Shown piece by piece: positions 26,109 through 41,026 of a stretch of 47,451 bases of DNA. Source of the DNA: Gemmatimonadales bacterium (GTDB taxonomy: Bacteria; Gemmatimonadota; Gemmatimonadetes; Gemmatimonadales; GWC2-71-9); contig JAZFYL010000025.1 in the NCBI GenBank assembly GCA_036443495.1, forward strand, positions 1 through 47,451. The letters are read 5' to 3'. Position 1 is the stretch's first letter; each line of letters begins with the position of its first letter. Both the position numbers and the translations under genes were made by a program. Below the pieces are notes generated by a model, which saw nothing but the letters and a program-made list of their open reading frames with translations, was not told the origin of the DNA and ran no database searches.

Positions 26109-27772
26109 GCGATGTAGCGAACGACGAACTCAGCGTGGCGTTTCTGAGACTGCAGCGGGAATACATTGCCGAGTTTCCGGCGCGGCTCGCGGAACTGCGG
26201 AAGGATATCGCGGCCCTGGGTGCGGGCGAGCCGGACGCCGCCGTATCCATCAAGAGACGGCTTCACAAGCTGGCTGGTTCAGGAGGGTCGTACGGATTTC
26301 CGGAGCTGAGCCGTGAGGCACGCGATGCGGAGCAGTGGCTAGGCCAACCCGACGCGGGCCCCGATACTGTGGAACGTTTGGATCAGACCGTCGCCAAGCT
26401 GGCCGAGTTGATGGACGAGGCTCCCACGCCAGAGATGCCGGAGGATCAAGGCCGGCCGCTGGATTTTGGATGGCAAGCGCACATCATTGGCCGTGAGCAC
26501 GGGTTGATGGCCGCCTTGACGGAGACCCTGACGGCGGCGGGATTCAAGGTAACATCCGGTTCGGAATCGAACCAAGCCAACACCATCCCCATCTCGGCCC
26601 GACCCGACCTCTTGGTCATCGTCGGCAAGGCCAAGGACTTCGATACTCATGCAACGGCTGCAGCCTGGACCAGCGTACGATCCATCCGTCCTCGGGGCGT
26701 GGTGCTCATCGACACCGGGGACAGTTCTGACCGGTTTGGAGCGGTCGCGGCAGGGGTCGATGCGATCTTCCAACCGGGCCAGATCAACACGGACTTCCCC
26801 CAGTACGCCAAGACCTTGGCCCGCATCGGCGTTCCCCCTTCGAGCGTACTGTTGGTGGAGGACGACCTCGCGCAAGCGCAGTTGGTCGCGTCGGCCCTGG
26901 AGGCATCCAACATCAGGGTCAATCATGCGGAAGATGCGGCACGAGCCCAGGAACTCCTGGCACAAGAGGTTCCCGACCTCATCCTGCTCGACATCGGGCT
27001 ACCCGACATGGACGGGATCACGCTGGCCCGCCTGATCAGGCAGGACCCGCGGTACAGCCTGCTACCGATCGTCTTCCTGACAGCGCGGGCGTCGATGGCG
27101 AGTCATGTCGAAGCGCTGCGGGCCGGCGGGGACGACTTCCTCACCAAACCGATAGACCAGAGCCTCAACCTGTTGCTGCAGGTAGTCATCACCCGGGCCG
27201 AGCGCGGACGTCGCATCCGCGAGATGGTCCACAAGGATGGCCTCACGGGGCTGCTCAACCACGCGACTTTGATGACGGAGTTGGAGAACGCAGTGGAGTA
27301 CGCCAATCGCGGTATCGAATCGTTCACCTTCTTGATGATCGACATCGACCATTTCAAGCGCGTGAACGATCGATACGGACACCTGGTGGGGGATCAGGTC
27401 TTGCTCCACGTCGCCCGGATCTTCCAGAGCACGGCGAGGTCGAGCGATGTGATCGGGCGGTATGGCGGCGAGGAATTCGGGATAATCCTGCGACGCAGCA
27501 ATCAGATCGGGGCTGCCACCGTAGCCGAGAAGCTCCGAACCGCCCTGCGAGAACGGCCGGCCACCACGGAAGACGGCGAACCGATCCCCGTGCAGGTCAG
27601 CATTGGAATCGCCAGCTATCCGGAGGACGGCGCTTCCGCGTCGGTCTTGGCGCATGCTGCGGATCTTGCATTGTATCGGGCGAAGTCTCGTGGGCGGGAT
27701 CGGGTGGAATTGGCCGACCCCGAGGGAGTCGCTGCTACGACTCCCGAGGAGACGCCCGGCGGCGAGGCCTGA
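26105..27772 (+). CDS. HPt - degenerate receiver - REC - GGDEF diguanylate cyclase response regulator
   Basis: HPt (RRLHKLAGSGGSYGF). REC (VLLVEDD...DLILLDIGLPDMDG...LTKP). GGDEF with a GGEEF active site and an RSSD I-site five residues upstream. Confidence 0.88.
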   Translation: MSDVANDELSVAFLRLQREYIAEFPARLAELRKDIAALGAGEPDAAVSIKRRLHKLAGSGGSYGFPELSREARDAEQWLGQPDAGPDTVERLDQTVAKLAELMDEAPTPEMPEDQGRPLDFGWQAHIIGREHGLMAALTETLTAAGFKVTSGSESNQANTIPISARPDLLVIVGKAKDFDTHATAAAWTSVRSIRPRGVVLIDTGDSSDRFGAVAAGVDAIFQPGQINTDFPQYAKTLARIGVPPSSVLLVEDDLAQAQLVASALEASNIRVNHAEDAARAQELLAQEVPDLILLDIGLPDMDGITLARLIRQDPRYSLLPIVFLTARASMASHVEALRAGGDDFLTKPIDQSLNLLLQVVITRAERGRRIREMVHKDGLTGLLNHATLMTELENAVEYANRGIESFTFLMIDIDHFKRVNDRYGHLVGDQVLLHVARIFQSTARSSDVIGRYGGEEFGIILRRSNQIGAATVAEKLRTALRERPATTEDGEPIPVQVSIGIASYPEDGASASVLAHAADLALYRAKSRGRDRVELADPEGVAATTPEETPGGEA

Positions 27773-40138: not shown

Positions 40139-40321
40139 GCAAGCGATCCTGTAGCGATGGTGAAGCGGGTCCCTGCGGCGCCACCGAAGGTACTACCCCG
40201 GTGGGGCGGCTACAAGTTGAACGGCGGGCACGATACAACCATGCAAGCTGCCAGATCGTGGGCCCGTGCCAGGAATTGTGCTGGTGGTGTAACCTATTGA
40301 CAATAAATCAGTTAGCGCCAG

Positions 40322-40337
40322 TGGCACGACTCTGGCA
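40322..40337 (+). promoter_or_regulatory. sigma54-like -24/-12 element TGGCACGACTCTGGCA
   Basis: Matches TGGCAC-N5-TTGCA at 15 of 16 defined or spaced positions. GG and GC are spaced exactly as in the consensus. Confidence 0.4.
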
Positions 40338-40339
40338 AT

Positions 40340-40551
40340 GCTAATGGGCACAAGAGAGGGGGCCAGAGCCCCCCAGTAAGAACAACGGACATACGATCCG
40401 CCCGATAAGAGCACACCCGGAGCGATCCGGGGCCGCAAAACCAGAGGTCTCGACCAATCGAGATAGCTCGGTGCCGAAGGTGGAACCAGCAATGCGGAGC
40501 GTAATGCCTGAGCCAGTGCCCCTGAGGGGCCTGTGCGCATTACGCTTTTTT
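40340..40551 (+). ncRNA. candidate structured RNA: sRNA or cis-regulatory leader of unknown class
   Basis: Non-coding 438-bp gap. Perfect hairpins at 40358..40373 (GGGGGC-CAGA-GCCCCC), 40416..40431 (CCCGGA-GCGA-TCCGGG, GNRA loop) and 40448..40463 (TCTCGA-CCAA-TCGAGA), ending in a strong terminator. Confidence 0.4.
40499..40551 (+). terminator. intrinsic terminator
   Basis: Outer stem GCGTAATGC/GCATTACGC encloses an inner stem GCCCC-TGA-GGGGC and is followed by TTTTTT. It ends 26 nt before the next ATG. Confidence 0.75.
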
Positions 40552-40576
40552 GTGTTTATCGGGCGTGGGAGAGAGC

Positions 40577-41026
40577 ATGACTTCCACGCAAGCGCAGTTC
40601 TCCAAGACCTTCGGGTCACGTCTAGCCGGCATCGCCCTGATGGCACTGGGTTGTGCGCCGGCGGCCTTGAGTCCCAGTTCCCTACCTGACGGTGCCGTTT
40701 CGTTCACGGCACCCTCGGAGTACCGGGTGTGGTGGGCCAGCACCGAGTCGTGCTCCGGTCGGACCGGTGACTTCGACCGGATTGCCTGGTACGCCGTCCC
40801 GGGGGCCAGCACCATGGAGACGGAGATCGGCGAGAAAGTTGGAATCTGGGCCAGCCATGACGGCCAGAGCACCATCACAATCGCCGGCGAGTACCTCGAC
40901 AACGAATTGGTCATCCGGCACGAGATGTTGCACGAGCTGCTGGGTCGTGACGGTCACCCCGACGAGTACTTCGTAGCTCGGTGCGGACTGACCTGGGAGA
41001 GTTGGCAGCTGGCCAGTAGCGAGTAG
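40577..41026 (+). CDS. small lipoprotein with HExxH zinc-metallopeptidase-like motif
   Basis: GGGAGAGAG precedes the ATG. Lipobox LMALGC. Contains IRHEMLHELLG. About 149 aa. Confidence 0.65.
   Translation: MTSTQAQFSKTFGSRLAGIALMALGCAPAALSPSSLPDGAVSFTAPSEYRVWWASTESCSGRTGDFDRIAWYAVPGASTMETEIGEKVGIWASHDGQSTITIAGEYLDNELVIRHEMLHELLGRDGHPDEYFVARCGLTWESWQLASSE

What the first reader, a model, noticed from the sequence alone, without database searches (positions are those of the whole stretch)
40290..40576. Roughly 200-nt structured RNA (sRNA or riboswitch-like leader) with a sigma54-type promoter, ending in a strong terminator 26 nt before a lipoprotein gene
The 438-bp gap between proline dehydrogenase (minus) and the HExxH lipoprotein gene (plus) has no convincing ORF. 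It contains TGGCACGACTCTGGCA (40322..40337), one mismatch from the sigma54 -24/-12 consensus with correct GG/GC spacing. It also contains three perfect short hairpins, one with a GNRA loop, and a compound terminator (40499..40551) with a six-T run directly upstream of the gene's ribosome-binding site. That layout is typical either of an independent sRNA or of a termination-controlled leader. In addition, GCTAATGGGCAC (40340..40351) can pair with 11 of 12 positions of GTGCGCATTACGC (40533..40545), the 3' arm of the terminator. This offers an antiterminator alternative. There is a tension, however. A sigma54 start about 12 nt after the GC would remove part of that segment, so both ideas cannot be fully right. 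I could not match it to RNase P, tmRNA, SRP, 6S or any riboswitch class I know.
Basis: partly seen in the sequence, partly recalled or inferred. Interest (0 to 1): 0.6.

Follow-up and report, generated by a model that had tools for sequence, protein, structure and literature searches.

The report
Cyclic-dinucleotide riboswitch behind sigma-54 promoter
The "unknown structured RNA" is a member of a well-known riboswitch class (c-di-GMP-I / GEMM-I) that most likely shuts off a small lipoprotein gene when a cyclic dinucleotide signal rises; it is ordinary in kind but has an adenine at a ligand-contact position and a conserved sigma-54-type promoter.

Summary
Window 40400-40478 (+) matches Rfam RF01051, the c-di-GMP-I (GEMM-I) riboswitch aptamer, at 54.1 bits against a gathering score of 35.

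The organism is a Gemmatimonadota MAG with three copies of one near-invariant subtype. The other two sit upstream of a pilin-like gene and a STAS gene. In 401 genomes sampled from the phylum, this subtype occurs in one family only (75 of 166 genomes).

The ligand-contact position equivalent to Vc2 G20 is A (40410). That is the GEMM-Ib signature, so the ligand is c-di-GMP and/or 3',3'-cGAMP and remains undecided.

The sigma-54-like motif (40322-40337) is conserved in 47 of 60 instances at a fixed distance and in 0 of 60 control windows. rpoN is missing from this 88%-complete assembly but present in 58 of 61 relatives.

Comparative data instead support an OFF switch. The aptamer's 5' strand pairs with either P1, an antiterminator partner (40494-40502), or a segment next to the ribosome-binding site (40556-40565).

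The parts
40322..40337 (+). Sigma-54-type promoter motif TGGCACGACTCTGGCA. The -24 GG is at 40323-24 and the -12 GC at 40335-36. The predicted transcription start is about 40348.
   Evidence: Sequence. The motif TGG[CT][AC][CT]-N5-T[TGC]GC is present in 47 of 60 distinct instances of this riboswitch subtype at -100..-50 from the A20 position. It is absent (0 of 60) from five upstream control windows and from the opposite strand. None of 15 G20-type GEMM-I copies in relatives carry it.
40358..40373 (+). 5'-proximal leader hairpin (GGGGGC CAGA GCCCCC), about 10 nt after the predicted start.
   Evidence: Folding. A hairpin of different sequence occupies the same place in paralogs and orthologs.
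40393..40402 (+). Switching 5' strand. ACG.UCCGC (40393-40401) is the 5' half of the predicted antiterminator. UCCGCC (40397-40402) is the 5' strand of P1.
   Evidence: P1 pairs are 88.5% kept with double changes U-A to A-U and to C-G. The antiterminator is 90.4% paired in 13 leaders but invariant. The antiterminator fold is 6-8 kcal/mol better than the aptamer fold for transcripts ending at 40502-40536.
40400..40478 (+). c-di-GMP-I (GEMM-I) aptamer. A at the position of Vc2 G20 = 40410. P1a spans 40411-40436 with a GCGA tetraloop. The A47 equivalent is 40437. P1b spans 40439-40472. The C92 equivalent is 40474.
   Evidence: Rfam RF01051 scores 54.1 bits (gathering score 35), E = 6.6e-08 over the whole window and 4.2e-10 locally. 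The alignment shows A opposite the model's G at position 11, with A and C kept at the other two contact positions.
40479..40484 (+). 3' strand of P1 (GGUGGA).
40494..40502 (+). GCGGAGCGU. This is the 3' half of the predicted antiterminator and overlaps the base of the terminator's 5' arm.
   Evidence: Conserved in lipoprotein and pilin leaders across genera.
40498..40551 (+). Intrinsic terminator. It has a 10-bp outer stem (40498-40507 with 40537-40546), an inner hairpin (CAG.GCCCC UGA GGGGCCUG) and a T run at 40546-40551.
   Evidence: The outer stem is 92.9% paired in 13 leaders. Two pairs change on both sides: G-C to A-U in 4 sequences and U-A to C-G in 2.
40556..40565 (+). UUAUCGGGCG. This is a perfect 10-nt complement of the aptamer's 5' strand and junction, CGCCCGAUAA (40399-40408), and lies immediately 5' of the ribosome-binding site.
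   Evidence: The MFE of the full leader forms it. The 3' strand is kept in 19 of 19 lipoprotein leaders, with 7-10 of 10 pairs. It is 90% paired on the alignment but without covariation, because the 5' strand is invariant. In G342 it directly follows P1 with no terminator in between.
40563..40589 (+). Hairpin that sequesters the ribosome-binding site: GCGUGGGAG (containing the SD GGGAG, 40567-71) pairs with CUUCCACGC (codons 2-5), with the AUG in the loop. It overlaps the previous element by 3 nt.
   Evidence: aptamer-enforced fold. It is 88% paired, and two pairs change on both sides, for example G-C to A-U in 4 sequences.
40577..41026 (+). Regulated gene: a 149-aa lipoprotein (lipobox LMALGC). 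Invariant residues are HEMLH (115-119), H127, C59 and C136.
   Evidence: There is no Pfam or NCBIfam match. All 21 homologs found are unnamed or 'hypothetical'. The AF2 model has mean pLDDT 78.6, and no PDB fold match reaches E <= 0.001; the best are zincins at E = 0.08. Homologs are preceded by the same riboswitch subtype in 20 of the 30 best loci across many genera.

Best explanation
The 438-bp gap encodes the 5' leader of the lipoprotein mRNA. Transcription most likely starts about 12 nt after a sigma-54-type promoter (40322-40337), so it would need an enhancer-binding activator.

The leader carries a c-di-GMP-I (GEMM-I) riboswitch aptamer (40400-40478). Its first ligand-contact nucleotide is A instead of G, so it senses c-di-GMP and/or 3',3'-cGAMP.

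The aptamer's 5' strand (40393-40408) has three mutually exclusive partners.
1. With ligand, it closes helix P1 with 40479-40484. This frees GCGGAGCGU (40494-40502), which completes the intrinsic terminator (40498-40551). Transcripts that still read through fold a hairpin that buries the Shine-Dalgarno sequence (40563-40589).
2. Without ligand, during transcription, it pairs with 40494-40502. This antiterminator occupies the base of the terminator stem.
3. Without ligand, in the full-length mRNA, it pairs with UUAUCGGGCG (40556-40565). This removes 3 bp from the Shine-Dalgarno-sequestering hairpin.

The net effect is that the cyclic dinucleotide turns the gene OFF at both transcription and translation.

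Shown here: the aptamer identity, the A at position 20, the conserved promoter motif, and the conserved and covarying P1, terminator and SD hairpin. Inferred: the transcription start, sigma-54 dependence, the ligand, the direction of switching, and the roles of the two invariant long-range pairings.
For: Aptamer identity:
- RF01051 scores 54.1 bits against a gathering score of 35.
- The sister variant model c-di-GMP-I-UAU scores below its own gathering score, 53.4 against 65.9.
- There are three copies in the genome. The family occurs in 45 of 61 relatives.

Position 20:
- A is aligned to the model's G. The same position is the conserved U in the UAU variant model.
- No A20 deviation appears in the 103 subtype matches found in 76 genomes.
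- The literature says G20 is replaced by A in cGAMP riboswitches and that Vc2 G20A binds both ligands (PMC6140456).

Promoter:
- The motif is present in 47 of 60 instances against 0 of 60 in each control window.
- rpoN is present in 58 of 61 relatives, and the own genome has at least 7 activator genes.

Structure:
- The ligand-bound structure is 93.9% paired against 36-42% for slid controls.
- Seven pairs change on both sides, and 0 of 500 shuffles reach the observed covariation score.

OFF direction:
- In one related genus (g24), STAS-gene leaders use the P1 3' strand itself as the Shine-Dalgarno (GGAGGA, with AUG 4-6 nt later).
- In G342 the lipoprotein leader has no terminator, and the RBS-adjacent complement follows P1 directly.
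- In G010 (locus L025) the same complement overlaps an explicit anti-SD hairpin.
- The antiterminator fold beats the ligand-free aptamer fold by 6-8 kcal/mol at transcript ends 40502-40536.
- The same architecture, in which aptamer and terminator coexist and an antiterminator competes, is documented for the Cd1 c-di-GMP OFF switch (PMC9262584).
Against: - The start site, termination and regulation are therefore unobserved.
- The antiterminator and the RBS-adjacent pairing are supported only by conserved complementarity. Both sides are invariant, so there is no covariation.
- Once the full terminator is transcribed it is thermodynamically favoured in both states, so the antiterminator can only act kinetically.
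- Calculated costs of opening the ribosome-binding site differ by at most 2.5 kcal/mol between states and change sign with the footprint assumed. The translational arm is therefore not resolved for this particular leader.
- rpoN itself was not found in this assembly.
- Genome-wide, the strict motif is no more frequent than spacing controls: 27 hits against 14-45.
Confidence: 0.62

Rival explanations
1. The aptamer is the same, but the switch works in the opposite direction, at least for translation. Without ligand, the 10-bp pairing 40399-40408 / 40556-65 places a bulky structure directly against the Shine-Dalgarno and blocks 30S loading. Ligand binding releases it and turns translation ON, and the terminator acts only as a constitutive attenuator.
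For: If the ribosome needs 40560/40562-40592 single-stranded, the opening cost is higher in the ligand-free ensemble: 23.0 against 17.5 kcal/mol, and 20.0 against 17.5 kcal/mol. Geobacter GEMM-Ib riboswitches, which also have A20, are ON switches (PMC9262584).
Against: P1 formation cannot prevent this terminator, because it frees the terminator's 5' arm. The simplest relatives bury the SD in P1 itself or in an anti-SD hairpin that forms when the aptamer is closed. With narrower footprints the cost difference reverses.
Confidence: 0.13
2. The conserved TGGCAC-N5-T(C/G)GC element is not a sigma-54 promoter. It is the operator of another DNA-binding protein, and transcription starts from an unrecognised promoter of another type.
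For: The -12 element deviates from TTGC at one position in almost all copies. rpoN is not in this assembly. The strict motif is not enriched genome-wide. A minority of instances (for example the G021/G120 type) have only a weaker GG-N10-GC match at -58.
Against: The invariant positions are exactly the GG and GC dinucleotides at 10-nt spacing, plus TGGCAC, on the sense strand only. The element sits at a fixed 70-90 nt from the aptamer, while everything around it varies. rpoN and many activators are present in the lineage. No sigma-70-like site was found on the + strand.
Confidence: 0.17
3. The roughly 200-nt terminated leader (about 40348-40551) is the functional product. It would be a trans-acting small RNA, or a cyclic-dinucleotide sponge, rather than only a cis-regulator.
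For: The ligand-bound state would release a stable, structured RNA ending at a strong terminator.
Against: The element is always directly upstream of, and co-oriented with, a gene. Its 3' platform is tailored to each gene's ribosome-binding site. Relatives without any terminator keep the aptamer. No trans target is indicated.
Confidence: 0.06

Closest known systems
c-di-GMP-I riboswitch (GEMM-I; Rfam RF01051), e.g. Vibrio cholerae Vc2 and Clostridioides difficile Cd1
   Same: The fold is the same: P1, a P1a hairpin with a GNRA tetraloop, and P1b, with the conserved junctions GCA.A / CGCAAA / GCCGAA. The score is above the family's gathering score. Like Cd1, the aptamer is followed by a terminator that can coexist with the folded aptamer and competes with an antiterminator, which makes an OFF switch (PMC9262584).
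   Different: A replaces G at the first ligand-contact position. P1b lacks the internal-loop tetraloop receptor of the model (those positions are deleted), and the tetraloop is GCGA/GUGA rather than GAAA. The antiterminator uses the 5' strand of P1. A second, RBS-adjacent complement adds a translational layer. The promoter motif is sigma-54-type.
GEMM-Ib (3',3'-cGAMP) riboswitches of Geobacter, e.g. Gs1761, Gm0970, pilM
   Same: Both have A at the position of Vc2 G20 with A47 and C92 kept, which is the hallmark of the cGAMP-binding subclass (PMC6140456; PMC5888326). Both have multiple copies per genome upstream of surface or pilus-type genes. G20-type copies coexist in the same genus.
   Different: The phylum is different: Gemmatimonadota, not Desulfobacterota. 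No Hypr GGDEF (Ser/Thr at the GacA-348 position) or SMODS/CD-NTase was found. The predicted logic here is OFF, whereas the Geobacter examples are ON. Selectivity is untested, and A20 alone can give dual specificity, as in Vc2 G20A and Cbe 1-2.
Sigma-54 (RpoN) -24/-12 promoters
   Same: Both have TGGCAC, a 5-nt spacer, then T.GC with invariant GG and GC 10 nt apart. The lineage has rpoN and many activators.
   Different: Position -14 is C or G instead of T. No start-site or rpoN-dependence data exist. I found no paper in the searched library describing a sigma-54 promoter combined with a c-di-GMP-I riboswitch.

Membership tests
c-di-GMP-I riboswitch (RF01051) | Covariance-model score at or above Rfam's gathering score | tested here: met
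   54.1 bits against 35, with full model coverage 1-87.
c-di-GMP-I riboswitch (RF01051) | P1a hairpin capped by a GNRA tetraloop, and a P1b helix, joined by the conserved junctions | tested here: met
   P1a is CCCGGA-GCGA-UCCGGG plus the G-C/C-G closing pairs. P1b has 13 pairs. These helices are 98.5-100% paired in 13 leaders, with double changes in P1a and P1b.
c-di-GMP-I riboswitch (RF01051) | Tetraloop receptor in P1b | tested here: inconclusive
   The model's internal-loop positions (CUAA / uAu) are deleted in this RNA. From my own knowledge of the family, GYRA loops are known to dock on plain helices. Docking itself cannot be tested here.
c-di-GMP-I riboswitch (RF01051) | Ligand-contact nucleotides G20, A47, C92 (Vc2 numbering) | tested here: not met
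   A47 (40437) and C92 (40474) are kept, but position 20 is A (40410). This is the known GEMM-Ib variation within the same Rfam family.
c-di-GMP-I riboswitch (RF01051) | Binds c-di-GMP | not testable with these tools
   This needs in-line probing or ITC. The genome does encode canonical diguanylate cyclases with Asp at the PleD-D344 position.
GEMM-Ib (3',3'-cGAMP riboswitch) | Adenine at the position of Vc2 G20 | tested here: met
   It is invariant in 103 matches of the subtype.
GEMM-Ib (3',3'-cGAMP riboswitch) | Selective binding of 3',3'-cGAMP over c-di-GMP | not testable with these tools
   A20 alone can give dual specificity (PMC6140456).
GEMM-Ib (3',3'-cGAMP riboswitch) | A cGAMP synthase in the same genome (Hypr GGDEF with Ser/Thr at GacA-348, or a DncV-type CD-NTase) | tested here: not met
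   No Ser/Thr variant appears among the 6 GGDEF domains read in the own genome or the 26 read in four relatives. There is no SMODS hit. The own genome is only 88% complete. One conserved paralog has Asn at this position, and its activity is unknown.
Sigma-54-dependent promoter | -24 GG and -12 GC elements with correct spacing and flanks | tested here: met
   TGGCAC-N5-TGGC has one mismatch to TTGC. It is conserved in 47 of 60 instances against 0 of 60 controls.
Sigma-54-dependent promoter | rpoN and enhancer-binding activators in the genome | tested here: inconclusive
   No rpoN domain reaches threshold in the 88%-complete MAG. rpoN is present in 58 of 61 relatives, including 5 of 5 in the same genus. 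Seven strong PF00158 activators are in the own genome.
Sigma-54-dependent promoter | Transcription start about 12 nt after the GC, and loss of transcription without RpoN | not testable with these tools
Intrinsic (Rho-independent) terminator | G+C-rich stem followed directly by a U run, kept by compensatory change | tested here: met
   There is a 10-bp stem plus an inner hairpin and six T. Two stem pairs change on both sides across 13 leaders.

The most novel reading that the evidence does not exclude
The near-invariant A20 subtype, with its own sigma-54-type promoter, may be a second cyclic-dinucleotide regulon in this Gemmatimonadota family, separate from the G20-type c-di-GMP riboswitches found in the same genus. 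It would respond to 3',3'-cGAMP or another mixed dinucleotide. The signal might be made by the family's conserved non-canonical GGDEF enzyme, which has Asn at the base-specifying position, strictly GGDEF, and an Fe-S/hydrogenase-like sensor. That would be a cGAMP-type riboswitch pathway outside the Geobacter lineage with a new kind of synthase.
Probability: 0.18. Interest if true: 0.7.

Novelty: new member of a known kind. Interest (0 to 1): 0.36.

Why it matters
The finding closes an apparent 'orphan structured RNA' as a member of a class described in 2008 and held in Rfam, so it is mostly routine annotation.

Three aspects go a little beyond routine.
- A whole Gemmatimonadota family carries an almost sequence-invariant A20 (GEMM-Ib-like) subtype. 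This is a ready test case for whether A20 predicts cGAMP sensing outside Geobacter.
- The subtype is coupled to a conserved sigma-54-type promoter. That implies a two-input gate: an activator turns it on and a dinucleotide turns it off.
- Relatives show a graded series of expression platforms built on one aptamer: SD inside P1, an RBS-adjacent complement, then an added terminator. This is useful for understanding how riboswitch platforms evolve.

It also identifies an unnamed small HExxH lipoprotein family, a STAS-domain gene and a pilin-like gene as dinucleotide-controlled targets in a poorly studied phylum.

Tried and rejected
1. The pairing exists, but the 5' segment is not conserved in the same-genus orthologs L040, L043, L045 and L048. 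It also lies before the predicted start, so I rejected it.

2. Other Rfam families on either strand. The only other hit was a spurious U1A_PIE match at E = 0.26 on the minus strand.

3. My first ruler for the GGDEF base-specificity residue. I used Asn of LTGLxNRR + 9, which was wrong because the position varied freely. I corrected it to the Asp of GHxxGD by alignment to PleD. Conclusions are withdrawn.

4. Genome-wide enrichment of the sigma-54 motif. There is none: 27 hits against 14-45 for other spacings. The promoter argument therefore rests on positional conservation only.

5. Thermodynamic modelling of ribosome-binding-site accessibility in the two states. The result was ambiguous.

6. 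A link between the Asn-variant GGDEF and the riboswitch subtype by distribution. The enzyme is in 154 of 166 genomes of the family, plus two other families. The subtype is in 75 of 166 genomes of one family. These are compatible but not discriminating.

7. Function of the lipoprotein. There is no Pfam or NCBIfam family, no named homolog and no significant PDB fold match.

8. RNA-seq and run search.

9. The original PNAS papers on GEMM-Ib are not held in the library.
Full report
**What is there**

- The motif TGGCACGACTCTGGCA is at 40322-40337.
- There are three perfect hairpins.
- There is a compound terminator with a six-T run ending 25 nt before the start codon.

The region folds far better than shuffled sequence, with z = -5.15 and 0 of 200 shuffles as good.

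**Identity**

A scan of the whole window against Rfam gives a single hit at or above a gathering score. It is RF01051, the c-di-GMP-I (GEMM-I) riboswitch aptamer, at 40400-40478 on the plus strand. It scores 54.1 bits against a cut-off of 35 and covers all 87 model positions. The related variant model c-di-GMP-I-UAU aligns equally well but stays under its own cut-off, 53.4 against 65.9. The third hairpin is the top of P1b.

**Ligand-contact positions**

In the Rfam alignment, the G immediately 5' of the paired 'GC' of GCAAA is an A here (40410). In the UAU variant model the same position is the conserved U. The A after CGC (40437) and the C after UG (40474) are kept.

By the Vc2 numbering these are positions 20, 47 and 92. 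G20 pairs with one guanine of c-di-GMP and C92 with the other, and A47 contacts the ligand as well (PMC5888326). In the 3',3'-cGAMP-binding subclass GEMM-Ib, G20 is replaced by A. [quoted passage not shown]

My assignment of model position 11 to G20 rests on the two Rfam alignments plus my memory of the Vc2 and Gs1761 sequences. It agrees with the papers' statement that Gs1761 A14 corresponds to Vc2 G20. The ligand is therefore c-di-GMP, cGAMP or both, and sequence alone cannot decide.

**Organism and distribution**

Orthologous loci retrieved from public genomes are titled 'MAG: Gemmatimonadota bacterium'. The window's own assembly has 2.5 Mb in 363 contigs and is 88% complete.
- It has three RF01051 hits: this one, one before a gene with a prepilin-like N-terminus (MNRKGFALE...), and one before a STAS-domain gene followed by a receiver-domain gene.
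- All three share the almost identical 5' half GCCCGAUAAGAGCACACCCGGAG(C/U)GAUCCGGGGCCGCAAA.
- In 401 genomes sampled across the phylum, this 31-nt signature (up to 2 mismatches) occurs in 76 genomes. All belong to one family (75 of 166 there, 0 of 234 elsewhere), and the reversed-pattern control gives no hits.
- None of the 103 matches deviates at A20.
- RF01051 in general is found in 45 of 61 close relatives. Both G20 and A20 types occur, including a G20-type copy in the same genus.

**Promoter**

Across 60 distinct instances of the subtype with enough upstream sequence, TGG[CT][AC][CT]-N5-T[TGC]GC is present in 47, within -100..-50 of A20. It is present in 0 of 60 in each of five upstream control windows and in 0 of 60 on the opposite strand. 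The invariant letters are T, GG, then T, G, C at the canonical spacing. The consensus is TGGCAC-N4-CT(C/G)GC, one position off TTGC. The surrounding sequence varies freely. None of 15 G20-type riboswitches in relatives has the motif.

On the rpoN test:
- rpoN domains were not found in this MAG. PF04552 and PF00309 gave nothing, and PF04963 gave only a sub-threshold hit.
- PF04552 is present in 58 of 61 relatives, including all five of the same genus.
- The MAG holds seven strong sigma-54 activator genes.

A start 12 nt after the GC falls at about 40348, 10 nt before a leader hairpin whose position, but not sequence, is conserved. Genome-wide, the strict motif is not enriched over other spacings, so the case rests on positional conservation. 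No sigma-70-like site was found on the plus strand. One on the minus strand (40303-40275) probably serves the divergent proline dehydrogenase gene.

**Expression platform**

I reject it. Comparison of 63 leaders suggests a different scheme, centred on the aptamer's 5' strand (40393-40408).

- (a) P1: UCCGCC (40397-40402) pairs with GGUGGA (40479-40484). Relatives show U-A changing to A-U or C-G, and G-U to G-C.
- (b) Antiterminator: ACG.UCCGC (40393-40401) pairs with GCGGAGCGU (40494-40502). The last five of these nucleotides are the base of the terminator's 5' arm. For transcripts ending at 40502-40536, this fold is 6-8 kcal/mol more stable than the ligand-free aptamer fold.
- (c) Long-range pairing: CGCCCGAUAA (40399-40408) pairs with UUAUCGGGCG (40556-40565), directly before the Shine-Dalgarno GGGAG. 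The unconstrained fold of the full leader forms it. Its 3' strand is kept in all 19 lipoprotein leaders examined.
- (d) SD hairpin: GCGUGGGAG (40563-40571) pairs with codons 2-5, CUUCCACGC (40581-40589). This buries the Shine-Dalgarno and overlaps (c) by 3 nt.

On a 13-sequence alignment from about eight genera (A1), the ligand-bound structure (P1, P1a, P1b, terminator, SD hairpin) is 93.9% paired, against 36-42% when partners are slid. Seven pairs change on both sides: two in the terminator, two in the SD hairpin, and one each in P1, P1a and P1b. None of 500 shuffles reaches the observed covariation score. Pairings (b) and (c) are about 90% paired against 17-49% when slid, but both sides are invariant. 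They are therefore supported by conserved complementarity only, not by covariation.

**Direction of switching**

P1 formation liberates the 5' arm of the terminator, so the ligand can only favour termination. Three simpler relatives point the same way.
- In one genus (g24), the STAS leader has no spacer at all. The 3' strand of P1 is GGAGGA, with the AUG 4-6 nt further on, so ligand-stabilised P1 hides the ribosome-binding site.
- In G342, the lipoprotein leader lacks a terminator, and UUAUCGGGCG follows P1 directly, overlapping the SD hairpin by 4 nt.
- In G010 (locus L025), the complement GUCGGGC overlaps an explicit anti-SD arm, CUCCGUC...GACGGAG.

All three read as OFF switches. The window's leader looks like the G342 design with a terminator inserted, which would give repression at two levels. 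This matches the documented logic of the C. difficile Cd1 c-di-GMP riboswitch, where the aptamer and terminator coexist and an antiterminator competes (PMC9262584).

Several caveats apply.
- The full terminator is thermodynamically favoured in both states, so the antiterminator must act kinetically.
- Computed costs of opening the ribosome-binding site differ by at most 2.5 kcal/mol for the narrower footprints and change sign with the assumed footprint.

I put the OFF reading at about two in three.

**Which ligand**

The own genome has seven GGDEF matches, one of them in this window (27230-27703). After correcting an initial error in my ruler (see Tried and rejected), I read the base-specifying residue (PleD D344, GacA S348). 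It is Asp in five of the six domains readable in the own genome and in 24 of the 26 read in four relatives. No Ser/Thr 'Hypr' variant (the signature per PMC6456294) and no SMODS/CD-NTase was found. This favours c-di-GMP, or dual specificity.

One paralog is unusual. It is a 581-608-aa protein with two 4Fe-4S motifs and a hydrogenase-like region fused to a GGDEF domain. That domain has Asn at this position (alignment to PleD) and strictly GGDEF. All 16 orthologs I could read share both features. The protein occurs in 154 of 166 genomes of the family and in two other families, but in none of 93 and 70 genomes of the two other large families. Its product is unknown. That leaves room for the more novel reading at about 18%.

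**The regulated gene**

The 149-aa product has a lipobox. Its invariant residues are C59, HEMLH (115-119), H127 and C136. It has no Pfam or NCBIfam family, and its homologs are only unnamed or 'hypothetical'. The AlphaFold model (mean pLDDT 78.6; residues 1-32 disordered) has no PDB match at E <= 0.001. The best, non-significant hits are zinc proteases. Homologs occur in 92 of 201 genomes of the family, and 20 of the 30 best loci carry the same riboswitch subtype upstream.

**Verdict**

This is a correct observation of a real, functional RNA and a partly correct interpretation. In kind it is a new member of a known riboswitch class. The points of modest interest are the A20 subtype confined to one Gemmatimonadota family, its tight coupling to a sigma-54-type promoter, and a nested series of expression platforms. 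I found no paper on c-di-GMP riboswitches in Gemmatimonadota, or on sigma-54 plus c-di-GMP-I combinations, in the searched library.

Noticed in passing
own genome contig C15:169-1911 (+), outside the window; orthologs L144-L172: This is a conserved GGDEF protein with an N-terminal 2x[4Fe-4S]/hydrogenase-like region. Its domain has Asn at the base-specifying position (PleD D344 / GacA S348) and always GGDEF, and LTGL(S/A)T(Y/F)RV replaces LTGLxNRR. It is present in 154 of 166 genomes of the family. Altered nucleotide specificity is possible but untested.
   Followed up: partly
own genome C114:263-341 (-) = L001, and C86:31118-31203 (+) = L003: There are two further copies of the same riboswitch subtype, each with the sigma-54-like motif and a terminator. 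One precedes a prepilin-like gene (MNRKGFALE...). The other precedes a STAS-domain gene followed by a receiver-domain gene and an ABC ATPase.
   Followed up: partly
window 40275-40303 (-): A sigma-70-like site (TTGTCA-17-CACAAT) lies on the minus strand. It is a plausible promoter of the divergent proline dehydrogenase gene, so the two promoters would be back to back.
   Followed up: no
L015 (G004:C147, same genus) 1500-1585: This is a G20-type GEMM-I aptamer with a GAAA-like loop, and it has no sigma-54 motif upstream. The genus therefore carries both G20 and A20 riboswitch types, as Geobacter does.
   Followed up: partly
window 40577-41026 (+): The unnamed lipoprotein family has invariant HEMLH...H127 and two invariant Cys (59, 136) outside the lipobox. 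It is a possible minimal zincin with a disulfide. No family, name or significant fold match was found. A 42%-identical paralog lies at own C223:1207-1578 without a riboswitch hit.
   Followed up: partly
L060-L082 (genus g24 STAS leaders): This is a minimal riboswitch design in which the P1 3' strand is itself the Shine-Dalgarno (GGAGGA), with a G·A mismatch in P1. It is a compact natural example of direct SD sequestration by the aptamer's closing helix.
   Followed up: partly
orthologs of the C15 GGDEF protein (table): Most orthologous matches report one in-frame TGA (or TAA/TAG) near query residues 563-570, where the own protein runs on. This is probably just the orthologs' natural stop inside the aligned tail, but I did not inspect it. 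The genome is noted elsewhere as decoding selenocysteine.
   Followed up: no
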